Below are positions 150 to 12,570 of a stretch of 12,570 nt of DNA, piece after piece. This DNA comes from a virus. Lineage: Duplodnaviria > Heunggongvirae > Uroviricota > Caudoviricetes. The translations under genes were made by a program, and so were the position numbers. The stretch spans positions 1 to 12,570 of the IMG/VR virus record IMGVR_UViG_2513237361_000007. One strand, 5' to 3'. Numbering within the stretch: the stretch's first letter is position 1; every line of letters starts with the position of its first letter. The notes under the pieces were generated by a model. That model saw only the letters and a program-made list of their open reading frames with translations. It was not told the origin of the DNA and did no database searches.

Positions 150-494
150 TTGAATGGGCTAGAGTCCAGATATGTCATTCAGCGAGGAGCTAATGCCAAT
201 GGTGCATGGATACGCTGGTCAGATGGTGCAATAGAAGTATTTGGAACCGGTGGATCTAATGATAATGGACTGGCTAAAGTTGTTTACCCAATTGCACTGC
301 CTAAACTTTCACGTTTTATCAGTATCGCGGAAAGAATAAGAACGGATTACGAGAGCACACCTAATAATGTTCACGTTTCAATGATCGTGGATGATCAGGT
401 AACAAATACCGGCTTTTATGCCCGCTGCCAGATGTACGACGGCAGACCATCATCAAATGCTTTTTCCTGGAGGGTTTATTGTGCGCCTGTTTAA
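150..494 (+). pseudogene. Tail-fibre C-terminal cassette fragment, 5'-truncated
   Basis: ORF begins at TTG and the frame stays open back to position 57 with no ATG. It lacks the conserved PWP...CNG...AYP motif seen at the start of the opposite cassette. Position and orientation mirror the alternative cassette; assignment is by context, not recognised homology. Confidence 0.4.
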
Positions 495-678
495 TCCAGT
501 TACTTTGACTGAAGTAATCCCCGGTCTTCATGACGTGACCGGGGCTATTGAATTACCGGAGGACAACTGGTTTTTTACTATGACAGAAATTCCTCAGGGC
601 ATGGAGCTAACAATTAATGAGAAAGGCGAACCAATACTAATTGAGGTTAATCAGTCTCAGGGAATACAGGCCAAATAA
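481..678 (+). CDS. Hypothetical 66-aa protein, possibly a truncated alternative tail-fibre assembly/chaperone gene
   Basis: GTG at 481 lies 6 nt after GGAGG (470-474) and overlaps the stop of the upstream cassette, suggesting coupling. No conserved Tfa C-terminal domain; the 3' end overlaps the convergent tfa gene. Confidence 0.3.
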   Translation: MRLFNPVTLTEVIPGLHDVTGAIELPEDNWFFTMTEIPQGMELTINEKGEPILIEVNQSQGIQAK

Positions 679-1255
679 TATCAGGCGCGGTGCTGGTATC
701 TGTTGCCGTCACTGCGTCAATGTAATTCAGCACCGTGTTAAGTCGGTTGGTTTCTGCCTGCGTCAGACTCCGTCCGGCCTGTAATTTCAGTTGAATCAGA
801 TTGATGGAAGCCATTGCAGTATCCATCAGCGACTGGCGCTGTGCTTCTGCTGCATCTACTGCGGCGCTATGCTGTGCCTCGGTATCCGTCACCCATTTCT
901 CACCATTCCATTTATCGTATGGCGTTAACGGGGCGATAGTGGTTGTATTATCAGGGTAATCCCCCGGAGCTGTGATTTCTTTTGATTCTCCCGTTTCGGT
1001 GTTATAGACAACTTCACCGCGATGGTCTGGCACATATTCCCATGAGTTAAAATCTGCCGAACGGCAGATTGCATAACCAGCCTTATGTGTGCCAGGAGCA
1101 TCTAAACAGGAATATGCGGGGATACCGACACCCACAGCAAGATATTCAATTGATGCAGAAATATACTCCCGTGTCTCACTGTCATAGTTATAAACGGTAA
1201 TCTCTCCTGCCTTTGTGGCAATAAATTTATTATTTAAGATGGCGTTATACATCAT
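647..1255 (-). CDS. Tail fibre assembly protein (lambda Tfa / Mu U-like chaperone)
   Basis: 202-aa ORF whose C-terminus (…NRLNTVLNYIDAVTATDTSTAPDIIWPVFPE) matches the conserved Tfa C-terminal domain. Its start overlaps the stop of the upstream fibre cassette. Confidence 0.8.
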   Translation of the reverse strand: MMYNAILNNKFIATKAGEITVYNYDSETREYISASIEYLAVGVGIPAYSCLDAPGTHKAGYAICRSADFNSWEYVPDHRGEVVYNTETGESKEITAPGDYPDNTTTIAPLTPYDKWNGEKWVTDTEAQHSAAVDAAEAQRQSLMDTAMASINLIQLKLQAGRSLTQAETNRLNTVLNYIDAVTATDTSTAPDIIWPVFPETD

Positions 1256-1830
1256 GCAGCCCTCACAATGTAATTAAATGAAATATTACGTGGGCGTGTC
1301 TCTGCTGCACCGACAATACTGGTACTCAACCCCGTTGCCGTTCGTTTGTTATTTTTATTTCCTTCAATCAAACAGTTGTAATCATCATTACCAATTAACG
1401 AATTGGTGGCATCAATACTGTCCGGGGACAAGGCATTAGTTGTGGAACTTAAAGTCAGCATCTCGTCTGAACTTGGAAGATTTTTTAATGGTGTTTCATT
1501 GCGTGAAATACCCGCATAAAAAAAGGACTCATGCCTGTGAGCTTCAAAAGAGTCATCCTGAAGACTTAGCAAGGCTCGCCCCGCATCCACTCCACGTCCA
1601 TCATCCCAGCCACGAATAAATTCACCGCGTAAATCAGGCAATTTATTGGTCGGGTAAGCCTTTGCCAGTTCCGGGTATTCTTCAGCAGAAAAAGCCGCAC
1701 CATTGCATTTCAGCCAGCCTGTTGGCGGAGTGGCTGAAGGCCACGGAACAGGCACCCCAACCGGTAATGCAGAGCCTTCTCCCAAACCAACGTTTAAGAA
1801 AATGCAGCGATTACGACTAACTGGCATCAT
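1252..1830 (-). CDS. Tail-fibre variable C-terminal cassette, lacking the constant N-terminal part of the fibre gene
   Basis: N-terminal region carries the motif PVGVPVPWPSATPPTGWLKCNGAAFSAEEYPELAKAYP typical of the variable region of P2 H / Mu S fibres. Only 192 aa, with the crossover site inside codons 10-18, so the annotated Met is probably not a real start. Confidence 0.7.
   Translation of the reverse strand: MMPVSRNRCIFLNVGLGEGSALPVGVPVPWPSATPPTGWLKCNGAAFSAEEYPELAKAYPTNKLPDLRGEFIRGWDDGRGVDAGRALLSLQDDSFEAHRHESFFYAGISRNETPLKNLPSSDEMLTLSSTTNALSPDSIDATNSLIGNDDYNCLIEGNKNNKRTATGLSTSIVGAAETRPRNISFNYIVRAA
1777..1802. other. Putative hix/gix/cix-like inversion crossover site (TTCTCCCAAACCAACGTTTAAGAAAA)
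   Basis: 26-bp 12-2-12 element with AAACC-AA-CGTTT centre, resembling Hin/Gin sites as recalled (e.g. TTCTTGAAAACCAAGGTTTTTGATAA). Sits at the 5' end of the fibre cassette about 55 bp from the invertase start, where gixR/hixR-type sites lie. Confidence 0.5.
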
Positions 1831-1857
1831 CCCCGATTTTTATTCAAGGAGATGATC

Positions 1858-2424
1858 ATGCTTATTGGTTATGTACGCGTGTCAACAAATGACCAGAACA
1901 CCGATTTGCAACGTAATGCACTGAATTGCGCGGGATGTGAGCGGATTTTTGAGGACAAAATCAGTGGCACTAAGTCCGACAGACCGGGGCTTAAAAAACT
2001 GCTTAGGACACTATCGGCAGGAGACACTCTGGTTGTCTGGAAGCTGGACAGGTTGGGGCGCAGTATGCGGCATCTTGTTACGCTGATAGAAGAGTTGCGC
2101 CAGCGTGGTGTGAATTTCCGAAGCCTGACTGACAGTATTGATACCAGCACCCCAATGGGCCGTTTCTTTTTTCATGTCATGGGTGCCCTGGCTGAAATGG
2201 AACGCGAACTGATAGTTGAACGTACCAGGGCGGGGATTGCTGCAGCTCGCGACAAAGGCAGAGTAGGTGGACGCCGTCCTAAGTTGACCAGCGAACAGTG
2301 GGCACAGATTGGGCGTTTACTCGAGGCCGGAGAATCAAGACAGCGTATTGCACTGATTTTTGATGTGGGCGTTTCTACCATTTATCGAAAATTTCCGGCA
2401 AATAAGAGCAATGAATCTCCCTGA
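1858..2424 (+). CDS. Serine DNA invertase (Pin/Gin/Hin/Cin family)
   Basis: N-terminus MLIGYVRVSTNDQNTDLQRNAL... with catalytic Ser in YVRVSTNDQ and a C-terminal HTH, very close to E. coli PinE as recalled. Start placed at ATG 1858 (AAGGAG at 1846-1851, 6-nt spacer) rather than ATG 1852. Confidence 0.9.
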   Translation: MLIGYVRVSTNDQNTDLQRNALNCAGCERIFEDKISGTKSDRPGLKKLLRTLSAGDTLVVWKLDRLGRSMRHLVTLIEELRQRGVNFRSLTDSIDTSTPMGRFFFHVMGALAEMERELIVERTRAGIAAARDKGRVGGRRPKLTSEQWAQIGRLLEAGESRQRIALIFDVGVSTIYRKFPANKSNESP

Positions 2425-2566: not shown

Positions 2567-3740
2567 ATGGCTCAGGATTACCACCACGGGGTGCGCGTTG
2601 TTGAAGTCAACGAAGGCACCCGATCCATTACCACGGTGAGCACCGCCATCGTGGGTATGGTCTGCACGGGCGATGATGCCGATGCAAAAATGTTTCCTCT
2701 TAATAAACCCGTGCTGATCACTGATGTGCTGACTGCCAGCGGTAAAGCGGGTGAGTCCGGCACACTGGCCCGTTCGCTGGACGCCATTGCTGACCAGGCA
2801 AAACCCGTGACCGTTGTTGTGCGTGTACCGCAGGGTGAAACGGAAGAAGAAACCACGACCAATATCATCGGAGCAGTGACCGCTGAAGGTAAAAAAACAA
2901 GGCATGAAAGCCCTGTTATCTGCCCAGTCACTGCTCGGCGTTAAACCGCGCATTCTCGGCGTGCCAGGCCACGACACCAAGGCGGTAGCTACTGAGTTGC
3001 TGAGCGTGGCGCAAAGCCTGCGTGGGTTTGCTTACCTGTCAGCGTATGGCTGCAAGACAGTGCAGGAGGCGATCGCTTACCGTGAAAACTTCAGCCAGCG
3101 CGAAGGAATGCTGATCTGGCCCGACTTTACTGGCTGGGACACGGTGCTGAATGCCGAAGCAACGGCATATGCCACCGCCCGTGCGCTTGGTCTGCGTGCC
3201 AAAATTGATGAGCAGACTGGGTGGCACAAAAGCCTGTCCAACGTGGGCGTGAACGGTGTCACCGGAATTTCTGCAGATGTGTTCTGGGATCTGCAGGACC
3301 CGGCAACCGATGCAGGTCTGCTGAACCAGAACGACGTCACCACGCTTGTGCGTAAAGACGGTTTCCGCTTCTGGGGTTCCCGCTGCCTGAGTGATGACCC
3401 GCTCTTTGCCTTCGAAAACTACACCCGCACGGCGCAGGTGCTGACGGACACAATGGCAGAAGCGCACATGTGGGCAGTGGACAAACCGCTGAACCCGTCG
3501 CTGGCGCGCGACATTATCGAGGGCATCCGCGCCAAAATGCGCAGCCTGGTCAGTCAGGGGTATCTCATTGGTGGTGATTGCTGGCTGGACGAGTCGGTGA
3601 ACGACAAAGACACGCTGAAAGCCGGAAAACTCACCATCGACTACGACTACACGCCAGTGCCGCCACTTGAAAACCTGATGTTGCGTCAGCGCATCACCGA
3701 TCAGTACCTGGTGAATTTCGCCACCCAGGTCAGCGCGTAA
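2567..3740 (+). pseudogene. FI: Tail sheath protein FI, disrupted by a +1 frameshift in an A7 tract (2891-2897)
   Basis: ORF 2567-2944 encodes the FI N-terminus ([19 protein letters not shown]...) and ORF 2904-3740 the rest (…[11 protein letters not shown]…[24 protein letters not shown]), in different frames. Removing one A gives continuous ...[29 protein letters not shown]..., collinear with P2 FI as recalled. Confidence 0.85.
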
Positions 3741-3749
3741 GGGGACAAC

Positions 3750-4265
3750 ATGGCTTTACCACGCAAATTAAAACACCTGAACCTGTTTAACGACGGGAAC
3801 AACTGGCAGGGGATCGTTGAGTCGCTGACGCTGCCGAAATTCACCCGCAAATATGAGAAGTATCGCGGCGGCGGAATGCCGGGGGCAGTGGATGTGGATC
3901 TGGGGCTTGATGACAGTGCGCTGGACACAGAATTTTCCATTGGTGGTACTGAACTGCTGCTGTTTAAGCAGATGGGCAAAGCCACGGTGGATGGCATCCA
4001 GTTGCGCTTTACCGGCTCTATCCAGCGTGACGATACCGGGGAAGTGCAGGCCGTGGAGCTTGTGGTGCGTGGACGTCACAAAGAAGTGGATTCCGGTGAG
4101 TGGAAGACGGGCGAAAGCAACACCACCAAAGTGACCAGTACCAACAGCTACGCGAAGCTGACCATCAATGGTGAGGTGCTCTATGAAGTGGACCTTATCA
4201 ACATGGTGGAAATTGTGGACGGTGTGGACCTGATGGAAGCGCACCGCAACGCCCTCGGCCTCTGA
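3750..4265 (+). CDS. FII: Tail tube protein FII
   Basis: 171 aa; MALPRKLKHLNLF...GSIQRDDTGEV...NMVEIVDGVD resembles P2 gpFII and sits immediately after FI. Confidence 0.9.
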   Translation: MALPRKLKHLNLFNDGNNWQGIVESLTLPKFTRKYEKYRGGGMPGAVDVDLGLDDSALDTEFSIGGTELLLFKQMGKATVDGIQLRFTGSIQRDDTGEVQAVELVVRGRHKEVDSGEWKTGESNTTKVTSTNSYAKLTINGEVLYEVDLINMVEIVDGVDLMEAHRNALGL

Positions 4266-4319: not shown

Positions 4320-4622
4320 ATGAGCGATAAGCAGACTGAAAAGACCATTCAACTGGATACCCCTATCAAGCGCGGTAAAACAGAAATTACCGAAATTGTG
4401 CTGCGTAAACCGCAGTCCGGTGCGCTGCGCGGTACACGCCTGCAGGCCATTATGGATATGGATGTGAACGCGATGATGACCGTGATCCCCCGCATCTCCA
4501 GTCCGGCACTGACTGCACAGGAAATTGCAGAGATGGACCCGGCAGATCTCACTGCCATGTCGGTTGAGGTTGTCACTTTTTTGTTGAAGAAGTCGGTGCT
4601 TACCGGTTTACCGACAGCCTGA
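4320..4622 (+). CDS. E: Tail assembly chaperone E
   Basis: 100-aa ORF between FII and T containing the slippery heptamer; position and size as in the P2 FETUD operon. Confidence 0.85.
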   Translation: MSDKQTEKTIQLDTPIKRGKTEITEIVLRKPQSGALRGTRLQAIMDMDVNAMMTVIPRISSPALTAQEIAEMDPADLTAMSVEVVTFLLKKSVLTGLPTA

Positions 4623-4756
4623 CGGTTGACGATCTGGTGGCTGATATCGCCACCATCTTTCACTGGCCGCCATCCGTTACTGACGTTATGCCGCTGACCG
4701 AAGTGCTGGAATGGCGGTATAAAGCGATTCAGAGAAGCGGGGCCAACGATGAGTGA
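4320..4756 (+). CDS. E': E+E' extended chaperone made by -1 programmed frameshift at 4577-4583
   Basis: After a -1 slip at T_TTT_TTG the -1 frame stays open for 58 codons (…VEEVGAYRFTDSLTVDDLVADIATIFHWPPSVTDVMPLTEVLEWRYKAIQRSGANDE) to TGA 4754-4756, overlapping the T start at 4749. Confidence 0.7.
4577..4583 (+). other. Slippery heptamer TTTTTTG for the E/E' -1 frameshift
   Basis: In-frame as T TTT TTG (codons ACT TTT TTG); same heptamer reported for P2 E/E'. Confidence 0.7.
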
Positions 4757-7700
4757 TAATAACCTGCGCCTGCAGGTCATTCTTAATGCGGTTGACAAAC
4801 TCACCCGCCCATTCCGTGCTGCACAGGCCAGTTCGAAAGAGCTGGCTGGCGCAATTCAGAATACCCGAAACAGCCTCAAAGAATTGAATAAGCAGGCTGG
4901 CAGAATTGATGAATTTCGCAAGACGCGCTCGCAACTAGCCATAACAGCCAACAACCTGAACGCAGCCCGCGAAGAGGCGGCAAAACTCGCCACACAATTT
5001 GCTGCCACTAACAGGCCAACCGCCGCGCAGGCAAAGTTATTCAGTCAGGCCAAAACACGAGTACAGGAACTTCAGCAGACCTATAACGGCTTGTTGGGGG
5101 CGGTCCAGAGACAACGTCAGGCACTTAAAGAATCAGGGATTGATACCAGACAACTCAGTAGTGCCCAGCGAGAACTTAAGAAAAATGCTGAAGAAACAAG
5201 GCAGGCACTGGAGGGCCAGCAAAAAGCACTTAAACGTCTGGGTGAGCAACAGGCACGGATGAACGCTGCCAGAGAACAATACTCAAGACGGCTTGAAGTG
5301 CGCGATCGCATCGCAGGAGCCGGAGCCACTACCACGGCTGCAGGGCTGGCAATGGGTGCGCCAGTGATGGCGGCAGTAAAAAGCTATACCAGCATGGAAG
5401 ATGCCATGAAAGGTGTGGCAAAGCAGGTCAATGGTCTGCGTGACGATAATGGCAACCGCACTGCACGTTTTTATGAAATGCAGGATGCCATCAAGGCTGC
5501 CAGCGAACAGTTGCCGATGGAAAACGGTGCGGTGGACTTCGCTGCACTGGTTGAAGGTGGTGCGCGCATGAACGTCGCAAACCCTGACGACAGCTGGGAA
5601 GACCAGAAACGTGACCTGCTGGCCTTCGCCAGTACGGCAGCAAAGGCGGCAACAGCCTTTGAGCTGCCAGCGGATGAACTGTCAGAAAGTCTGGGGAAAA
5701 TCGCCCAGCTCTACAAAATACCTACCCGCAATATTGAACAGCTCGGCGATGCGCTGAACTATCTGGATGATAACGCCATGTCGAAAGGGGCGGACATCAT
5801 TGATGTGATGCAACGTCTGGGCGGTGTGGCTGACCGTCTGGATTATCGTAAAGCGGCGGCACTGGGTTCCACCTTTCTGACACTGGGTGCTGCGCCGGAG
5901 GTTGCAGCCAGTGCAGCAAACGCGATGGTGCGTGAATTGTCCATTGCCACCATGCAAAGCAAGAGTTTCTTTGAAGGGATGAATCTGCTGAAACTCAATC
6001 CTGAAGTGATTGAAAAGCAGATGACGAAGGATGCGATGGGAACTATCCAGCGTGTGCTGGAGAAGGTGAACGCACTGCCGCAGGACAATCGTCTGTCTGC
6101 CATGACCATGTTGTTTGGTAAAGAGTTTGGTGATGATGCAGCGAAACTGGCAAACAACCTTCCGGAACTGCAGCGCCAGCTAAAACTGACAGCGGACAAT
6201 GATGCGCTCGGTTCCATGCAGAAAGAATCCGACATCAACAAAGACTCACTTTCCGCTCAGTGGTTGCTGGTCAAAACTGGAGCGCAGAACACCTTCAGCA
6301 GCCTGGGCGAAACGCTGCGCCAGCCGCTGATGGATATTCTGTACACGGTGAAAAGCATTACGGGGGCGTTGCGCCGCTGGGTGGAAGCTAACCCGGAACT
6401 GACAGGCACACTGATGAAAGTAGCGGCTGTTGTGGCTGCGGTTACCGTAGGCCTCGGCACCTTAGCGGTGGCGCTGGCTGCAGTGCTGGGGCCGCTGGCA
6501 GTGATCCGTCTGGGATTCTCTGTGCTGGGTATCAAAACGTTACCTTCCGTTACGGCAGCAGTAACTCGAACCAGCAACGCGTTGTCCTGGCTGGCTGGCG
6601 CTCCACTGGCACTGCTGCGACGCGGGCTTGCTTCATCGGGCAACGCCGCAGGTTTACTTACTGCGCCGTTGTCGTCTTTGCGCCGCACGGCATCACTGAC
6701 GGGAAATGTCCTGAAAACTGTAGCAGGTGCGCCAGTTGCACTTTTGCGGTCTGGATTATCCGGTTTACGTGCTGTTGCTGTGATGTTTATGAATCCTCTG
6801 GCGGTACTGCGCGGTGGACTGGCAGCCGCAGGCGCGGTGCTGCGAGTGCTTGCATCTGGTCCGCTGGCGATGCTGCGCGTTGCCCTGTATGCCATATCTG
6901 GTCTGTTAGGTGCTCTGCTCAGTCCGATAGGTCTTGTGGTTACTGCACTGGCGGGCGTGGCGCTGGTTGTCTGGAAATACTGGCAACCCATTACCGCATT
7001 TCTCGGTGGCGTGGTGGAAGGATTCAAAGCGGCGGCAGGTCCCATCAGTGCAGCGTTTGAACCACTTAAGCCCGTGTTCCAGTGGATTGGCGACAAAGTG
7101 CAGGCGCTGTGGGGCTGGTTTACTGATCTGCTGACGCCTGTTAAGTCGACCTCTGCCGAACTGCAGAGCGCAGCGGCAATGGGGCGACGATTCGGGGAGG
7201 CACTGGCGGAAGGGCTGAATATGGTCATGCATCCGCTGGACTCCCTGAAATCCGGTGTTTCCTGGTTGCTGGATAAACTCGGCATTGTCAGTAAAGAGGC
7301 TGCAAAGGCGAAACTGCCGGAAAGCGTGACGCGTCAGCAACCTGCGACGGTGAATGCAGACGGTAAAGTGATGATGCCATCGGGTGGTTTTCCGTCATGG
7401 GGATATGGCTTTGCGGGGATGTATGACAGCGGCGGCTATATCCCGCGCGGGCAGTTTGGCATCGTCGGTGAAAACGGGCCGGAAATTGTCAACGGCCCGG
7501 CAAACGTGACCAGCCGGAGAAATACCGCTGCACTGGCTGCGGTTGTTGCCGGAATGATGGGCGTTGCTGCCGCGCCTGCAGAGCTTCCACCGTTACATCC
7601 TTTGGCACTTCCCGCGAAAGGCGGCGAAGCGATGGTGAGTCGTGCAGCCACTGTGCCGCCCGTTCAACGGCTTGAGGCACCGACGCAGATCATCATTCAG

Positions 7701-7826
7701 ACGCAGCCAGGACAAAGTGCGCAGGATATTGCGCGGGAGGTTGCACGCCAGCTTGATGAACGTGAACGCAGGCTGAAGGCAAAAGCCAGGAGTAACTACA
7801 GCGATCAGGGGGGATACGAAGCATGA
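4749..7826 (+). CDS. T: Tail tape measure protein T
   Basis: 1025-aa ORF with coiled-coil-like N-terminal half, a hydrophobic repeat-containing middle and a glycine-rich C-terminus; follows E/E' and overlaps U (ATGA at 7823-7826). Confidence 0.9.
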   Translation: MSDNNLRLQVILNAVDKLTRPFRAAQASSKELAGAIQNTRNSLKELNKQAGRIDEFRKTRSQLAITANNLNAAREEAAKLATQFAATNRPTAAQAKLFSQAKTRVQELQQTYNGLLGAVQRQRQALKESGIDTRQLSSAQRELKKNAEETRQALEGQQKALKRLGEQQARMNAAREQYSRRLEVRDRIAGAGATTTAAGLAMGAPVMAAVKSYTSMEDAMKGVAKQVNGLRDDNGNRTARFYEMQDAIKAASEQLPMENGAVDFAALVEGGARMNVANPDDSWEDQKRDLLAFASTAAKAATAFELPADELSESLGKIAQLYKIPTRNIEQLGDALNYLDDNAMSKGADIIDVMQRLGGVADRLDYRKAAALGSTFLTLGAAPEVAASAANAMVRELSIATMQSKSFFEGMNLLKLNPEVIEKQMTKDAMGTIQRVLEKVNALPQDNRLSAMTMLFGKEFGDDAAKLANNLPELQRQLKLTADNDALGSMQKESDINKDSLSAQWLLVKTGAQNTFSSLGETLRQPLMDILYTVKSITGALRRWVEANPELTGTLMKVAAVVAAVTVGLGTLAVALAAVLGPLAVIRLGFSVLGIKTLPSVTAAVTRTSNALSWLAGAPLALLRRGLASSGNAAGLLTAPLSSLRRTASLTGNVLKTVAGAPVALLRSGLSGLRAVAVMFMNPLAVLRGGLAAAGAVLRVLASGPLAMLRVALYAISGLLGALLSPIGLVVTALAGVALVVWKYWQPITAFLGGVVEGFKAAAGPISAAFEPLKPVFQWIGDKVQALWGWFTDLLTPVKSTSAELQSAAAMGRRFGEALAEGLNMVMHPLDSLKSGVSWLLDKLGIVSKEAAKAKLPESVTRQQPATVNADGKVMMPSGGFPSWGYGFAGMYDSGGYIPRGQFGIVGENGPEIVNGPANVTSRRNTAALAAVVAGMMGVAAAPAELPPLHPLALPAKGGEAMVSRAATVPPVQRLEAPTQIIIQTQPGQSAQDIAREVARQLDERERRLKAKARSNYSDQGGYEA
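6603..6890 (+). repeat. Five degenerate tandem repeats of about 63-66 bp inside T, encoding P(L/V)AxLRxGL-type segments
   Basis: Related units begin near 6603, 6666, 6733, 6795 and 6861 (e.g. CCACTGGCACTGCTGCGACGCGGGCTT, CCAGTTGCACTTTTGCGGTCTGGATTA, CCTCTGGCGGTACTGCGCGGTGGACTG, CCGCTGGCGATGCTGCGCGTTGCCCTG). Confidence 0.5.
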
Positions 7827-8308
7827 TGATGGTGCTGGGATTGTACGTGTTTATGCTGCGCACCGTGCCGTATCAGGAGCTGCAGTATCAACGCAGCTGG
7901 CGACATGCGGCAAACAGCCGGGTAAACCGACGTCCGTCCACGCAGTTTCTGGGACCGGACAACGACATGCTGACGCTTTCCGGTGTTCTTATGCCGGAGA
8001 TAACAGGTGGCAGGCTGTCGTTGCTGGCACTGGAGCAGATGGCAGAACAGGGGAAAGCATGGCCCCTGATTGAAGGCAGCGGCACGATTTATGGCATGTA
8101 TGTGATTGAGGGACTGAATCAGACTAAAACGGAGTTTTTCCGCGACGGTATGCCGCGCCGGATTGAGTTCACCCTGTCGCTCAAAAGGGTGGATGAATCA
8201 TTGTCCGATATGTTCGGTGATCTCAGTGCGCAACTGAATAATCTGCAGGACACGGCAACGTCTGCCTTAAGCGATATCAGTAAAACGGTGGGAGGGCTGC
8301 TGTCGTGA
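7823..8308 (+). CDS. U: Tail protein U
   Basis: 161 aa; MMMVLGLYVFMLRTVPYQELQYQRSWRH...FRDGMPRRIEFTLSLKRVDE is near-collinear with P2 gpU as recalled. Confidence 0.9.
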   Translation: MMMVLGLYVFMLRTVPYQELQYQRSWRHAANSRVNRRPSTQFLGPDNDMLTLSGVLMPEITGGRLSLLALEQMAEQGKAWPLIEGSGTIYGMYVIEGLNQTKTEFFRDGMPRRIEFTLSLKRVDESLSDMFGDLSAQLNNLQDTATSALSDISKTVGGLLS

Positions 8309-9405
8309 ATTTCAGCTCTGAACTGCTTAACAAAGGCAACAAAACTCCCGCATTCAGCATCAGTATTGAGGGCAGGGATATCACCACTGTGCTGGATAAC
8401 CGCCTGATGAGTCTGACGCTGACGGATAACCGGGGCTTTGAAGCGGACCAGCTTGATCTGGAGCTGGACGACGCCGATGGAAAAATAGCGCTGCCGCGCC
8501 GTGGTGCGGTCATTACGCTGGCGCTGGGCTGGAAGGGGCAGCCGCTTTTCCCGAAAGGGGCATTCACGGTGGACGAGATTGAACACACTGGCGCACCGGA
8601 CCGCCTGACTATCCGGGCGCGAAGTGCTGATTTTCGGGAAACGCTGAATACCCGCCGTGAAAAGTCGTGGCACAAGACCACTGTCGGGGAAGTGGTGAAG
8701 GAAATAGCTGTGCGGCACAAACTGAAGATGGCACTGGGTAAAGACCTGTCAGATAAACCCGTGGAACATATAGACCAGACTAATGAGAGTGACGGCAGTT
8801 TTCTGATGCGGCTGGCGCGCCAGTACGGTGCTATTGCGTCGGTGAAAAATGGCAATCTGTTATTCATCCGGCAGGGACAGGGTAAAAGCGCCAGCGGTAA
8901 ACCACTACCGGTTATCACTATCACACGTAAGGACGGCGACAGTCACCGCTTTACCCTGGCAGATCGCGGAGCCTACACGGGCGTAATTGCCAGCTGGTTG
9001 CATACCCGCGAACCCGCGAAGAAAGAAAGCACCACGGTGAAGCGTAAGCGCAGGACTAAGAAGCAGAAGAAAGAGCCGGAAGCGAAGCAGGGCGATTACC
9101 TGGTGGGTACAGATGAAAACGTGCTGGTACTTAATCGCACTTATGCCAACCGGAGCAACGCTGAACGGGCTGCGAAAATGCAGTGGGAACGCCTGCAACG
9201 CGGCGTTGCGTCATTCTCGCTACAACTGGCGGAAGGGCGGGCAGAACTCTATACGGAAATGCCAGTGAAAGTCAGTGGCTTTAAACAGCCGATAGATGAT
9301 GCGGAATGGACCATTACGACTCTGACACATACCGTCAGCCCGGATAATGGTTTTACGACCAGTCTGGAGCTTGAAGTGAGGATTGATGATTTCAAAATGG
9401 AATGA
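8305..9405 (+). CDS. D: Tail protein D (late control gene D family)
   Basis: 366-aa ORF after U with GTGA start/stop overlap; contains a Lys/Arg-rich low-complexity segment (KRKRRTKKQKKEPEAKQ). Confidence 0.85.
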   Translation: MNFSSELLNKGNKTPAFSISIEGRDITTVLDNRLMSLTLTDNRGFEADQLDLELDDADGKIALPRRGAVITLALGWKGQPLFPKGAFTVDEIEHTGAPDRLTIRARSADFRETLNTRREKSWHKTTVGEVVKEIAVRHKLKMALGKDLSDKPVEHIDQTNESDGSFLMRLARQYGAIASVKNGNLLFIRQGQGKSASGKPLPVITITRKDGDSHRFTLADRGAYTGVIASWLHTREPAKKESTTVKRKRRTKKQKKEPEAKQGDYLVGTDENVLVLNRTYANRSNAERAAKMQWERLQRGVASFSLQLAEGRAELYTEMPVKVSGFKQPIDDAEWTITTLTHTVSPDNGFTTSLELEVRIDDFKME

Positions 9406-9495
9406 TTCTTCGCAATGGAGAACTTTTAAGTTTGCAAAATGGAATAATGCGGTATCATTATTGTGAATTTAGCAAAAATGGGGAGAACTCGAAAA

Positions 9496-9714
9496 ATGAT
9501 GATTTGCCCACTGTGTGGAAGTGCCGCCCATACTCGCAGCAGTTTTCAGGTATCTTCATTGACCAAAGAGCGTTACAACCAGTGCCAGAACATTAACTGC
9601 AGCCATACTTTTGTTACCCATGAAACTTTTGTTCGTTCGATTGCAACGCCAAAAGAGTCAAATCCGGTTCAGCCGCATCCAATGAAATCAGGACAGGTGG
9701 CGCTCTCTCTTTGA
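9496..9714 (+). CDS. ogr: Ogr/Delta-family zinc-finger late transcription activator
   Basis: MMICPLCGSAAHTRSS...KERYNQCQNINCSHTF...RPHP with Cys4 CxxC...CxxxxC arrangement like P2 Ogr. Start at ATG 9496 (GGGGAG at 9480-9485) preferred over ATG 9463. Confidence 0.85.
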   Translation: MMICPLCGSAAHTRSSFQVSSLTKERYNQCQNINCSHTFVTHETFVRSIATPKESNPVQPHPMKSGQVALSL

Positions 9715-9800
9715 CTCTGCCGCCAATTTGTCGCCATCGTTAAAAAACACTGCTTCTAACATCATGATTTTAAAAGGCATAAATTTTAGGCAACAAAAAA

Positions 9801-9838
9801 CCCATCAACCTTGAACCTAAATGGCGGGGTTGATGGGC
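9801..9838 (-). terminator. Rho-independent terminator downstream of ybjL
   Basis: Inverted repeat CCCATCAACC (9801-9810) / GGTTGATGGG (9828-9837); on the minus strand the hairpin is followed by TTTTTTGTTG (complement of 9791-9800). Confidence 0.6.
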
Positions 9839-9949
9839 TCCACAAAATGGGGACATCAAAGAAAAGCAGTGGCACTAATTAAGACTGATACCCTGAAGAA
9901 AAGTTCTGCGGTTGTACAAAAAAATTTCATTTTTAGGGCAACTTCAGTT

Positions 9950-11635
9950 TTATCCGAGTCCGGGCCATACCATCACAATGATTGTCCCTGCCAGTGTCAG
10001 CAGTACGTTAGCTATTGCATAAGTGCCCGCATAGCCCAGCGCCGGGATGTTACTGCGGGCTGTATCACTGATGATCTCCATTGCCGGTGCGCAGGTTCGT
10101 GCGCCCATCATTGCGCCGAATAACAGTGCGCGGTTCATACGCAATACGTAAGCACCGAACAGGAAGCAGATAACAACGGGCACCAGACTGACAATCAATC
10201 CGGCAATCAACATCTGACCGCCAATCGCGCCCAGGCCGTTATTGATGCCGCTACCGGCGCTTAAACCAACACCCGCCATAAACACCATCAAACCAAACTC
10301 TTTCACCATACTTAACGCACCCTGCGGAATATAGCCGAAGGTCGGGTGGTTAGCGCGCATAAAGCCCAGCATAATGCCAGCGAATAACAATCCGGCAGCG
10401 TTACCCATGCCAAAACTGAAAGTGCTGAACTGGAAGGTAATCATCCCGATCATCAGGCCTATAACAAAGAATGCGCAGAATGCCAGCAAGTCGGTGACCT
10501 GGCTGTGAATCGAAATAAAGCCGATACGGTCAGCGATGGTCTTCACACGGCGGGCATCGCCGCTCACCTGCAAAACGTCACCTTTGTTAAGCACTACGTT
10601 ATCGTCAATTGGCATCTCGATCTGACTGCGGATCACGCGGTTAAGGAAGCAACCGTGATCGGTCAACTTCAATTGCGCCAGACGTTTACCGACGGCGTTA
10701 TGGTTTTTGACGACCACCTCTTCAGTGACAATACGCATGTCGAGAAGGTCACGATCAAAAACTTCTTTACCGTTACGGAAGCTGGGATCGAGTCGGGCGT
10801 GGGCATCGGGATATCCTACCAACGCTATTTCATCGCCCATTTGCAACACGGCGTCACCATCCGGATTTGCCAGAATCCCGTTACGACGGATACGTTCAAT
10901 ATAGCAACCGGTCTGTCGATAAATACCCAATTCACGCAAGTTCTTGCCGTCGGCCCAGGCGACCAGTTCCGGCCCGACTCGGTAAGCGCGAATCACCGGC
11001 AGATAGACTTTGCGGCTGGCGTCGGTGTCCAGACCTCGCTCACGAGCGATTTGCTGGGCGCTGGTCTGTAAGTCCTGATGCTGTAACTTGGGCAGGTAAC
11101 GCGCTCCGACAATCAGGCTCACCAGACCGATCAAATAGGTTAATGCATACCCAAGGCTTAAATTATCCAGTGCCGCGGAGAGCTGCCCGCTTTCTATACC
11201 AGAGTGGCGTAACGTATCGCCCGCACCGACCAGAACCGGCGTCGATGTCATGGAGCCAGCCAACATACCGGCCGTCAGGCCAATGTCCCAGCCAAACAGC
11301 TTACCCAAACCTAAGGCGATCAACAGCGCACTACCGACCATTACCAGCGCTAACATTAGGTAATTTTTCCCATCGCGGAAAAAAATGGAAAAAAAGTTGG
11401 GTCCGGCTTCGACCCCGACGCAGAAAATAAACAGCATAAAGCCAAGATTAAGCGCGTCGGTGTTAATACTGAAATGTTGTTGACCTAATAATAGCGATAC
11501 GACTAAAACGCCAATGGAATTACCCAGTTGGATTGAACCAAGTCGTAATTTTCCGAGACATAGCCCAAGCGCGAGGACCACGAATAATAACAGAATGTAA
11601 TTCCCATTTAACAATTCGGCGACGTTTATATTCAC
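9950..11635 (-). CDS. ybjL: YbjL putative transporter (AAE family, with TrkA-C/RCK_C domains)
   Basis: 561-aa polytopic membrane protein starting [33 protein letters not shown]; matches E. coli YbjL as recalled, with conserved neighbours ybjM and grxA. Confidence 0.9.
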
Positions 11636-11903
11636 GGAGACTAACTTCTTGTTTACGAGTAAGCTGTTGAAAGAAATGGTAATTTAAGATAATGTTTTTA
11701 CCTGAATTCAGGGCGCAGATTCATTCAGCGCACTTAATCAATAGTAAAGTAACAATATATTTTACTAGTGTAATCACATTAGATACCAACGGCTATAAGA
11801 ATTGTGTTGGCCTATATTAGCATGGAATGCGAAGCGGCTTTATCTTACTGAGCGCCACACTGGCGAAAAATGTGTTCGATAGAGGCAGTGTCAGGAGGAA
11901 GAT

Positions 11904-12281
11904 GTGAAACATAAACAACGTTGGGCGGGGGCAGTCTGCTGTTTTGTCCTCTTCATTGTGGTGTGCCTTTTCCTGGCGACGCATATGAAGGGCGCTTTTC
12001 GGGCTGCCGGGCATCCTGAAATCGGCTTACTGTTTTTCATTCTTCCTGGAGCTGTCGCCAGTTTTTTTTCGCAGCGTAGAGAAGTCCTTAAACCCCTGTT
12101 TGGCGCAATGCTGGCAGCACCGTGTTCTATGTTAATTATGCGCCTGTTTTTTTCACCAACACGCTCATTCTGGCAAGAGCTGGCATGGTTATTGAGTGCT
12201 GTCTTCTGGTGTGCGCTGGGGGCGTTGTGTTTCTTGTTTATCAGTAGCTTGTTCAAGCCACAACACAGAAAAAATCAATAA
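11904..12281 (+). CDS. ybjM: Inner membrane protein YbjM
   Basis: 125-aa hydrophobic ORF MKHKQRWAGAVCCFVLFIVVCLF...; GTG start at 11904 with AGGAGG (11893-11898) 5 nt upstream. Confidence 0.85.
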   Translation: MKHKQRWAGAVCCFVLFIVVCLFLATHMKGAFRAAGHPEIGLLFFILPGAVASFFSQRREVLKPLFGAMLAAPCSMLIMRLFFSPTRSFWQELAWLLSAVFWCALGALCFLFISSLFKPQHRKNQ

Positions 12282-12302
12282 AGCCCTCAAACAGAGAGGG
12301 CT
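12282..12302. terminator. Hairpin between convergent ybjM and grxA (possible bidirectional terminator)
   Basis: AGCCCTC (12282-12288) / GAGGGCT (12296-12302) with a 7-nt loop; A-rich on the plus side upstream, giving a T-tract for the minus strand. Confidence 0.4.
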
Positions 12303-12312
12303 TATCCGGCAA

Positions 12313-12570
12313 TCAGGCGTCAAGATTCTCTTTTACCCAGGCTGCAAAATCGGTATAGCCACCGATGTGTTGCTGATCGACAAAAATCTGCGGCACGGTT
12401 TCAACGGGCTTCCCGGCCTTCTGTTGTAAATCTTCTTTAGTGATCCCTTCAGCACGAATATCCACATACTGATAGTGAAAATCATCGCGCTCGTTGCTTA
12501 ATTTTTCTGCCAGATCTTTTGCACGAACGCAGTAAGGGCAACCCGGACGGCCGAAAATAACGGTTTGCAT
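12313..12570 (-). CDS. grxA: Glutaredoxin 1
   Basis: 85 aa, MQTVIFGRPGCPYCVRAKDLAEKL... with CPYC active site; near-identical to E. coli GrxA as recalled. Complete, with the start codon at the window end. Confidence 0.95.
   Translation of the reverse strand: MQTVIFGRPGCPYCVRAKDLAEKLSNERDDFHYQYVDIRAEGITKEDLQQKAGKPVETVPQIFVDQQHIGGYTDFAAWVKENLDA

What the first reader, a model, noticed from the sequence alone, without database searches (positions are those of the whole stretch)
4749..7826. Enlarged tape-measure protein with five internal tandem repeats
T is 1025 aa here, versus roughly 815 aa for P2 T as I recall. The middle region (about 6603-6890) contains five degenerate repeats of about 21 aa with a P(L/V)AxLRxGL motif, visible also at DNA level. 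Since tape-measure length sets tail length, repeat gain by slipped recombination is a plausible cause and a source of variation between related prophages.
Basis: partly seen in the sequence, partly recalled or inferred. Interest (0 to 1): 0.4.

Follow-up and report, generated by a model that had tools for sequence, protein, structure and literature searches.

The report
Repeat array inside phage tape-measure protein
The tail "ruler" protein of this P2-like E. coli prophage holds an old array of 21/22-residue repeats, and changes in their number explain most of the ruler-length differences among its close relatives; this kind of variation is already known, but it offers a ready natural test of how tail length is set.

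Summary
Gene T (4749-7826) encodes a 1025-aa tape measure protein; P2 gpT is 815 aa. Residues 616-722 (nt 6594-6914) are five tandem 21/22-aa units with a P(L/V)xx(L/M)R core. A sixth, diverged unit lies upstream and the family-wide last hydrophobic helix lies downstream. The true period is 43 aa (z = 10.5 against shuffles).

The array is ancient. Third codon positions are random between copies, and Tandem Repeats Finder finds nothing.

The five units account for 107 of the 210 residues by which T exceeds P2 gpT. The rest lies mostly in the C-terminal region, and the middle of the two proteins is not alignable.

Fels-2 T (935 aa, 82% identical) differs by one 86-aa gap, which is exactly four units. 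Rare E. coli alleles carry -3, -1 (three junctions), +0.5 and +1 units, all in register. Other length hot spots exist in the C-terminal region.

Unit count is strictly kept (zero gaps) across genera while the sequence drifts, which fits a spacer or ruler role. No usable tail measurements exist.

Verdict: a new member of a known kind, of modest interest.

The parts
4749..7826 (+). Gene T, tail tape measure protein, 1025 aa
   Evidence: ORF and translation. TIGR01760 tape_meas_TP901 E = 2.3e-93. PF10145 E = 5e-18. phrog_28 E = 1e-208. 98.7% identical to the Escherichia phage Cartapus tape measure protein.
4749..5288 (+). N-terminal coiled-coil region (aa 1-180), 47% identical to P2 gpT
   Evidence: BLASTP. 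It is the only confidently modelled part of the AlphaFold model, as long helices. In near-identical relatives aa 35-180 exist as two alleles only 31% identical.
5484..6119 (+). PhageMin_Tail domain (aa 246-457)
   Evidence: Pfam PF10145. It lies within the TIGR01760 match at aa 200-567.
6405..6482 (+). First strongly hydrophobic helix (about aa 553-578) preceding the array
   Evidence: Kyte-Doolittle profile: window means above 1.0 for aa 558-597.
6483..6593 (+). Diverged first unit A0 plus a 16-aa spacer (aa 579-615; GPLAVIR...), 37 aa to the next unit
   Evidence: Motif at aa 582. A0 scores 15-27 against the other units, above the 99th percentile of the null (14). It is conserved across the family.
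6594..6656 (+). Unit A1 (aa 616-636, AGAPLALLRRGLASSGNAAGL)
6657..6722 (+). Unit B1 (aa 637-658, LTAPLSSLRRTASLTGNVLKTV)
6723..6785 (+). Unit A2 (aa 659-679, AGAPVALLRSGLSGLRAVAVM)
   Evidence: A1-A2 is the best-scoring unit pair (46).
6786..6851 (+). Unit B2 (aa 680-701, FMNPLAVLRGGLAAAGAVLRVL). This unit is duplicated in the 1047-aa alleles and lost in the 1003-aa alleles.
6852..6914 (+). Unit A3 (aa 702-722, ASGPLAMLRVALYAISGLLGA), present in most relatives, including the short Fels-2 type
6915..6980 (+). Last hydrophobic helix with the KYW anchor (aa 723-744, LLSPIGLVVTALAGVALVVWKY). It stands in the B position of the third 43-aa double unit and is conserved in P2.
   Evidence: Aligned to P2 aa 586-614. 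Borderline similarity to the other units.
6975..7328 (+). Conserved Trp-rich region after the anchor (aa 743-860), 44% identical to P2 gpT
   Evidence: BLASTP. 82-90% identical in most relatives of 1011-1025 aa, 70% in L023.
7401..7526 (+). C-terminal motif (aa 885-926, GFAGMYDSGGYIPRGQFGIVGENGPEIVNGPANVTSRRNTAA), shared with many siphophage tape measure proteins and bordering a second indel hot spot
   Evidence: tblastn hits of 44-64% identity over aa 865-926 or 885-926. Insertions of +114 and +125 aa at aa 922-927 in relatives.
4320..4756 (+). Tail assembly chaperone genes E (4320-4622) and E' (extension ORF 4637-4756, overlapping the T start), with a TTTTTTG slippery site at about 4577-4583
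   Evidence: PF10109. PF06528. Sequence read. P2 annotation of the -1 frameshift.

Best explanation
The block is an ancient tandem array inside the hydrophobic central segment of a P2-family tape measure protein. It is built from 43-aa double units (21 + 22 aa). Each single unit starts with G/A/S-P-L-A-x-L-R and is rich in Leu, Ala and Gly. The five units together carry ten basic and no acidic residues.

Shown: this lineage (genus Elveevirus and its relatives) has five such units between a diverged first unit and the family-wide last hydrophobic helix. Copy number changes by in-register recombination between the short, imperfectly conserved DNA core that encodes the motif (CCNCTGGCNNTNCTGCGC). 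This produced the 86-aa-shorter Fels-2-type protein and rare alleles with -3, -1, +0.5 and +1 units.

Inferred: the units act mainly as length-constrained helical spacer in the ruler that lies in the tail-tube lumen. Each unit would then add about 3 nm, and the four units missing from Fels-2 about 13 nm (roughly three tube discs). This uses the roughly 0.15 nm per residue rule known from lambda gpH, T4 gp29 and TP901-1 (my own knowledge).
For: - Periodicity: z = 10.5, period 43 aa; unit-to-unit scores.
- Membership as a tape measure protein. Operon position between E/E' and U/D.
- Fels-2: one 86-aa gap at aa 609-694. The same 2805-nt gene span occurs in SopEPhi, SEN8 and RE2010.
- Direction of change: Fels-2 is sister to the 1021-aa MLG42 protein (96.5% identical in the flanks) and nested within the long clade. 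Its junction TRTG|SVLRLLISGP matches the B2 tail at 8 of 11 positions against 3 of 11 for the first unit's tail. Both point to a secondary loss.
- Recent alleles: an exact 66-nt duplication (1047 aa, 24 contigs); loss of 22 aa with three different junctions (PLAMLRV, PLAVLRV, PLAVLRG); loss of 64 aa (13 contigs); an 11-aa duplication. All lie in intact operons.
- Length conserved while sequence drifts: zero gaps in the five units in relatives of 1011-1025 aa, although identity there is 47-69% against 83-90% in the flanks (53% in Pantoea L033, whose aa 181-552 region is replaced).
- Age: third codon positions are 26% identical between copies.
- Viability of both forms: the short (Fels-2, SopEPhi) and long (MLG42) forms belong to isolated phages.
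Against: - No reliable tail measurement links unit number to tail length. Cartapus was never seen by electron microscopy.
- MLG42 is reported with a 234-nm tail but also a 128-nm head, against about 145 and 67 nm for 186-type phages. The tail-to-head ratio (1.8 against 2.0-2.3) gives no support for a longer tail.
- The region is hydrophobic. A P2 cryo-EM preprint places predicted transmembrane helices in the corresponding part of gpT and proposes a membrane conduit role, so the units may serve that role rather than measure length.
- One unit as an alpha-helix (about 3.2 nm) does not match one tube disc (about 4 nm, my own knowledge).
- The AlphaFold model is uninformative here, with pLDDT about 28-30.
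- The window's own sheath gene carries a frameshift, so this copy may not make tails at all.
Confidence: 0.8

Rival explanations
1. The units are not ruler material. They are extra amphipathic or transmembrane helices of the part of the tape measure protein that leaves the tube and forms a conduit through the inner membrane, or that is covered by the E/E+E' chaperones during assembly. Copy number would then tune membrane insertion or solubility and leave tail length unchanged.
For: The block sits between two strongly hydrophobic helices, and units 4-6 are themselves hydrophobic. The P2 preprint predicts transmembrane helices up to I612 of gpT, the equivalent region, and proposes a tape measure pore. 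In other lineages the same slot holds unrelated cassettes, such as an acidic insert of about 110 aa or nothing at all, as expected for a functional module rather than a plain spacer.
Against: Units 1-3 carry 2-3 Arg/Lys each and have low hydropathy, which is poor for membrane spans. Strict conservation of length with relaxed sequence is more typical of a spacer. By my own knowledge, in-frame deletions almost anywhere in the tape measure proteins of lambda, T4, TP901-1 and TM4 shorten tails, including in functional motifs. The two roles are not exclusive.
Confidence: 0.35
2. The repeat block is a hypermutable contingency locus. Recent slipped-strand mispairing on near-perfect DNA repeats would switch tail length frequently.
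For: An exact 66-nt duplication and several independent single-unit deletions exist.
Against: The copies share only 35-51% DNA identity, with random third positions, and Tandem Repeats Finder finds nothing. All 55 sampled complete E. coli genomes with full coverage show no unit-sized indel in 6300-7200 (one span is 1 nt shorter), so variants are rare, at most about 5%. The unit count is identical from Escherichia to Pantoea.
Confidence: 0.05
3. The length variants are assembly artefacts or decay products of dead prophages and say nothing about functional variation.
For: Some length variants clearly are artefacts or decay: read-through or fusion with U (1107 and 1186 aa) and a replaced N-terminus (1117 aa). 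The window's own sheath gene is frameshifted. Repeats are prone to assembly error.
Against: Each repeat-block allele is in frame and recurs on 13-24 contigs with intact neighbouring genes. One deletion carrier is a complete genome, NZ_CP106924.1, matched as a single 70-nt piece. The largest change, -86 aa, is fixed in isolated Felsduovirus phages.
Confidence: 0.1
4. The periodicity is a by-product of Leu/Ala/Gly-rich composition and there are no true repeats.
For: The region has low complexity: L, A and G make up 57% of the five units.
Against: None of 5000 composition-preserving shuffles reached the observed score. Natural indels respect unit boundaries exactly, at 22, 64 and 86 aa.
Confidence: 0.01

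Closest known systems
Fels-2 / SopEPhi / RE-2010 gpT-like tape measure protein (Felsduovirus; YP_001718720, 935 aa)
   Same: 82% identical over its whole length, with the same operon, the same first unit, the same last 21-aa unit and the same terminal helix.
   Different: It lacks exactly four units (86 aa, T aa 609-694). It is nested within the long-array clade, so the short form is probably a secondary loss.
Bacteriophage P2 gpT (NP_046782, 815 aa)
   Same: Same gene position between E/E' and U/D. aa 1-178 are 47% identical and aa 715-867 are 44% identical, including the last hydrophobic helix and the KYW anchor.
   Different: The central region of about 540 aa is not alignable by BLASTP. 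P2 has no P-L-A-x-L-R units; its hydrophobic stretch is 37 + 22 aa with two W-P-V motifs. It is 210 aa shorter, of which 107 aa are the five units.
Escherichia phage Cartapus, Klebsiella phage 4LV2017 and Yersinia phage MLG42 tape measure proteins (Elveevirus, 1021-1025 aa)
   Same: 84-99% identical, with an identical array layout of 37, 21, 22, 21, 22, 21, 22. The window is 100% identical over 901 nt to E. coli NCTC8623.
   Different: Nothing essential. The window belongs to this group.
Tandem-repeat units in siphophage tape measure proteins (Belcaid et al. 2011, PMC3271669; TP901-1 repeat region, from my own knowledge)
   Same: Repeated units inside the ruler whose duplication and loss change protein length. 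The 11-aa duplication allele and the 21/22-aa units are near multiples of 11.
   Different: There is no 11-residue W/F marker pattern. The unit is 21/22 aa (43 aa doubled), lies in the hydrophobic segment, and occurs in a contractile-tail phage. A 2026 survey reports that myovirus tape measure proteins mostly lack tandem repeats (PMC13585406).
Lambda gpH and T4 gp29 rulers (my own knowledge; cited in PMC13585406)
   Same: The protein determines tail length in proportion to its own length.
   Different: Only distant similarity or none. No comparable natural copy-number series has been described for them, to my knowledge.

Membership tests
Phage tail tape measure protein, TP901 family (TIGR01760 / PF10145 / phrog_28) | Profile match above the curated cut-off | tested here: met
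   TIGR01760 313 bits against a cut-off of 28.8. PF10145 66 bits against 33.2. phrog_28 E = 1e-208.
Phage tail tape measure protein, TP901 family (TIGR01760 / PF10145 / phrog_28) | [quoted passage not shown] | tested here: met
   E (PF10109), E' (PF06528) and the TTTTTTG site lie upstream. U (PF06995) and D (PF05954) lie downstream.
Phage tail tape measure protein, TP901 family (TIGR01760 / PF10145 / phrog_28) | Largely alpha-helical, extended protein | tested here: inconclusive
   The AlphaFold model is mostly helical by DSSP, but mean pLDDT is 38. Only aa 30-170 are confident.
Phage tail tape measure protein, TP901 family (TIGR01760 / PF10145 / phrog_28) | Protein length sets tail length | not testable with these tools
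   No electron microscopy of Cartapus. The MLG42 measurement is unreliable.
Elveevirus-type T with the full array | At least 84% identity and the layout 37+21+22+21+22+21+22 between the first hydrophobic helix and KYW | tested here: met
P2 gpT orthologue in the strict sense (Peduovirus type) | Alignable along the whole length with P2 gpT | tested here: not met
   BLASTP aligns only aa 1-178 and 715-867. tblastn covers 29%.
Belcaid-type 11-aa tape measure repeat units | [FW]-x10 repeated seven times, or the 11-11-18 pattern | tested here: not met
   Neither pattern is found, and there is only one F or W in aa 616-722.
Slippage-prone simple-sequence contingency locus | Near-identical head-to-tail DNA copies | tested here: not met
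   Tandem Repeats Finder finds none. Unit DNA identity is 35-51%. Third codon positions match at 26%.

The most novel reading that the evidence does not exclude
The 21/22-aa units are a modular length-tuning element of a contractile-tail ruler. The natural allele series would then specify tails that differ in discrete numbers of tube and sheath discs. That series comprises the Fels-2 type with one of the five units, plus alleles with two, four, five, five and a half and six units. The strict conservation of unit number with free sequence drift would reflect selection on tail length, for example to match host envelope or capsule thickness. A stronger form is that each positively charged unit docks periodically on the acidic tube lumen.
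Probability: 0.3. Interest if true: 0.55.

Novelty: new member of a known kind. Interest (0 to 1): 0.35.

Why it matters
Tape measure proteins are the textbook molecular ruler. Even so, it remains unclear for contractile tails which parts of the protein actually count towards length, and whether the hydrophobic segment is ruler, membrane conduit or both.

This family offers a ready-made natural series: 935, 961, 1003, 1025, 1036 and 1047 aa. The members differ almost only by whole repeat units in otherwise 82-99% identical proteins, and several belong to isolated or inducible phages. Measuring their tails would answer the question directly. Practically, the series also explains why annotated T lengths differ between Felsduovirus and Elveevirus prophages, which occur in about a fifth of complete E. 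coli genomes (1051 of 5426).

Tried and rejected
- AlphaFold2 on full-length T with an 18-sequence alignment gave mean pLDDT 38, and about 28-30 in the array. It cannot tell hairpins from a continuous helix, so no fold search was run.
- Junction-specific 70-nt searches in complete E. coli genomes, meant to count carriers of the +22 and -22 alleles, failed. The tool joins the two wild-type half-matches, so coverage does not discriminate. Only one clean carrier could be read off (NZ_CP106924.1). Frequency is therefore bounded only by sampling: none of 55 shows a unit-sized indel.
- A literature search for tail lengths of Cartapus, Fels-2 and RE-2010 (ELPhiS) found nothing usable. The MLG42 value has an implausible 128-nm head.
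- A PDB sequence search gave only one weak hit, 9j1k FtbJ, E = 0.0055.
- The reading 'P2 gpT plus an inserted repeat block' was rejected, because the central halves of the two proteins are unalignable.
- Recent slippage was rejected as the origin of the five resident units.
- The 342-aa antisense ORF at 6257-7285 was noted and not examined; it is assumed to be a by-product of GC-rich Ala/Leu codons.
Full report
**Context.** The window carries the tail operon of a P2-like prophage:
- a DNA invertase (1852-2424);
- the sheath gene FI, split at about 2899;
- the tube gene FII (3750-4265);
- chaperone genes E (4320-4622) and E' (4637-4756);
- T (4749-7826), U (7823-8308), D (8305-9405) and ogr (within 9463-9714);
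- host genes beyond that.

T is 98.7% identical to the tape measure protein of Escherichia phage Cartapus (genus Elveevirus, Peduoviridae). A 901-nt stretch of it is 100% identical to E. coli NCTC8623. Similar genes occur in 1051 of 5426 complete E. coli genomes. Membership in the TP901 tape measure family is solid: TIGR01760 E = 2e-93, PF10145, phrog_28.

**The observation.** T is 1025 aa and P2 gpT is 815 aa. The motif P[LV]xx[LIM]R occurs at aa 582, 619, 640, 662, 683 and 705, with spacings of 37, 21, 22, 21 and 22. Autocorrelation of aa 613-728 peaks at 43 aa. No composition-preserving shuffle out of 5000 reaches the observed score, and z = 10.5.

The best reading is an array of 43-aa double units, A (21 aa) plus B (22 aa):
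- A1B1, aa 616-658;
- A2B2, aa 659-701;
- A3, aa 702-722, followed by the last hydrophobic helix (aa 723-744) in the B position.

A diverged unit A0 lies at aa 579 onwards. A1B1 and A2B2 share 18 of 43 residues, and most unit pairs score above the 99th percentile of the null. The five units hold 24 Leu, 23 Ala, 14 Gly, ten Arg/Lys and no Asp/Glu.

At the DNA level the repeat is barely visible. Tandem Repeats Finder finds nothing. Only a 28-nt core is 68-79% identical. Whole units are 35-51% identical. Lag-129 identity is 43% (p about 0.0005), and third codon positions match at a random 26%. The resident copies are therefore ancient and are kept alike at the protein level only.

**Where the length differences map: P2.** BLASTP aligns only aa 1-178 (47%) and aa 715-867 (44%) with P2 gpT. 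Using the conserved KYW anchor (T 743, P2 614), 129 of the 210 extra residues lie before it and 81 after it. P2's hydrophobic stretch is 37 + 22 aa and has no A-type unit. The five units (107 aa) therefore account for about half of the excess.

**Where the length differences map: Fels-2.** Fels-2 T (935 aa) aligns end to end at 82% identity, with one 86-aa gap (T aa 609-694, exactly four units) and one 4-aa gap. SopEPhi, SEN8 and RE2010 have the same 2805-nt gene span.

**Where the length differences map: close relatives.** Among the 120 closest cluster representatives (at least 84% identity), the in-frame internal indels fall in two hot spots plus two singletons.
- Inside the array: -64 aa (961 aa); -22 aa with three distinct junctions, PLAMLRV, PLAVLRV and PLAVLRG (1003 aa); +11 aa (1036 aa); +22 aa (1047 aa).
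- At aa 909-927: -6, +114 and +125 aa.
- Singletons: -28 aa at 218 and +45 aa at 799.

At the DNA level the +22 allele is an exact 66-nt tandem duplication. The junctions of the other alleles lie in the shared core CTGGCNNTNCTGCGCG. These alleles recur on 13-24 contigs with intact neighbouring genes. They are rare: none of 55 sampled full-coverage genomes has a unit-sized indel in 6300-7200 (one span is 1 nt shorter).

**Direction and age.** On trees built from the flanks (aa 180-605 and 745-860), Fels-2 is sister to the 1021-aa MLG42 protein (96.5% identical) and nested inside the 1021-1025-aa clade. The window's T branches first within that clade. The Fels-2 junction TRTG|SVLRLLISGP resembles the tail of unit B2 at 8 of 11 positions, against 3 of 11 for the tail of the first unit. 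The short form is therefore most likely an in-register loss of 86 aa.

In species-representative genomes the distance from A0 to KYW takes four forms:
- 162 aa in Escherichia, Citrobacter and Enterobacter loci, and in Winslowiella and Pantoea;
- 76 aa (Fels-2 type) in Kluyvera and Citrobacter loci;
- 188-192 aa where an unrelated acidic insert replaces the middle units;
- minimal (44 aa plus the last helix) in proteins of 893-913 aa.

More distant representatives show the same slot as a general expansion site. One has its own 18-aa repeat (z = 8.2).

Within the 162-aa class the five units contain no gap at all. Yet they are the least conserved part in most comparisons: 47-69% identity against 83-90% for aa 181-552 and 70-90% for aa 723-860. 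The exception is Pantoea L033, where aa 181-552 is replaced (21% identity) and the units are 53% identical. Length is conserved while sequence drifts.

**Mechanism.**
- Shown: the array, its register, its age, and recurrent in-register gain and loss through short imperfect homology.
- Inferred: the function. The pattern of constrained length with relaxed sequence favours a role as helical spacer in the ruler. So does the general rule, from my own knowledge of lambda gpH, T4 gp29, TP901-1 and TM4, that in-frame changes in a tape measure protein scale tail length. That would mean about 3 nm per unit and about 13 nm for the Fels-2 difference.
- The main rival: these units belong to the hydrophobic module that a recent P2 cryo-EM preprint proposes forms an inner-membrane conduit after ejection. 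That preprint predicts transmembrane helices up to I612 of gpT. The two roles are not exclusive.

No usable tail measurements exist. Cartapus was not seen by electron microscopy. MLG42's 234-nm tail comes with an implausible 128-nm head. AlphaFold was uninformative.

**Comparison and novelty.** Tandem units whose duplication and loss change tape measure length are known in siphophages (Belcaid 2011). This array does not fit their 11-aa W/F pattern. It also lies in a myophage, a group reported to lack tandem repeats in most tape measure proteins. I could not find it described. It is best filed as a new member of a known kind.

**Verdict.** Interest is modest (0.35). The main value is the natural allele series, which allows a direct test of what counts as ruler in a contractile tail.

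Noticed in passing
window 2567-3740 (indel at about 2899): The tail sheath gene FI is split into two ORFs (2567-2944 and 2904-3740) by one extra base next to an A-run, relative to Cartapus (GGTAAAAAAACAAGG against GGTAAAAAAAC-AGG). Either this prophage copy is defective or the assembly has a homopolymer error.
   Followed up: partly
window 7401-7560 (T aa 885-937); relatives P0001/P0030 (1139 aa) and P0116/P0118 (1149 aa): A second indel hot spot in T. A +114-aa insert is a diverged duplicate of the preceding C-terminal module. A +125-aa insert is made of units of about 41 aa resembling NGPANVTSRRxTAxLA. The flanking motif GMYDSGGYIPRGQFGIVGENGPEIVNGPANV is shared at 44-64% identity with tape measure proteins of many unrelated siphophages.
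   Followed up: partly
window 4851-5288 (T aa 35-180): Near-identical T proteins (98-99% identical in aa 181-600) carry one of two N-terminal alleles that are only 31% identical over aa 35-180 (for example P0038, P0119, P0030 and P0037 against the window). This indicates mosaic recombination inside the gene.
   Followed up: partly
window 5394-5499: A 22-nt imperfect direct repeat (MEDAMKG / MQDAIKA, 84 nt apart) coincides with a 28-aa in-frame deletion in relative P0029 (997 aa). This is another microhomology-mediated deletion, outside the array.
   Followed up: partly
window 4577-4756: A TTTTTTG slippery site lies in gene E, and the E' extension ORF (PF06528) overlaps the T start codon by 8 nt. 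This is the conserved -1 frameshift chaperone arrangement of P2.
   Followed up: partly
window 9463-12570: The prophage ends just after ogr (Ogr_Delta zinc finger). The next genes look like host genes: an Asp-Al_Ex/TrkA_C transporter (9950-11635, minus strand) and a glutaredoxin (12313-12570, minus strand). The attachment site was not located.
   Followed up: no
window 150-2424: An invertible tail-fibre segment: a Gin/Cin-type invertase (1852-2424) lies next to oppositely oriented tail-fibre tip and fibre-assembly genes (647-1255 Caudo_TAP; 1252-1830 collar domain), as in Cartapus and Fels-2.
   Followed up: no
window 6257-7285 (minus strand): A 342-aa ORF runs antisense to the repeat region of T. 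It is probably a by-product of GC-rich Ala/Leu/Gly codons and was not examined further.
   Followed up: no
P0184 (1041 aa, distant homologue), aa about 590-670: An unrelated tape measure lineage has its own 18-aa GGFSGL-type repeats in the equivalent slot (z = 8.2). The segment before the last hydrophobic helix therefore appears to have expanded independently in different lineages.
   Followed up: partly
L004 (Yersinia phage vB_YpM_MLG42) and PMC11126057 Table 1: The published dimensions of MLG42 (head 128 nm, tail 234 nm for a 31-kb genome) are about twice those of the co-isolated 186-type phages, which suggests a scale problem. The GenBank record also labels its T gene 'tail fiber assembly protein'.
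   Followed up: no
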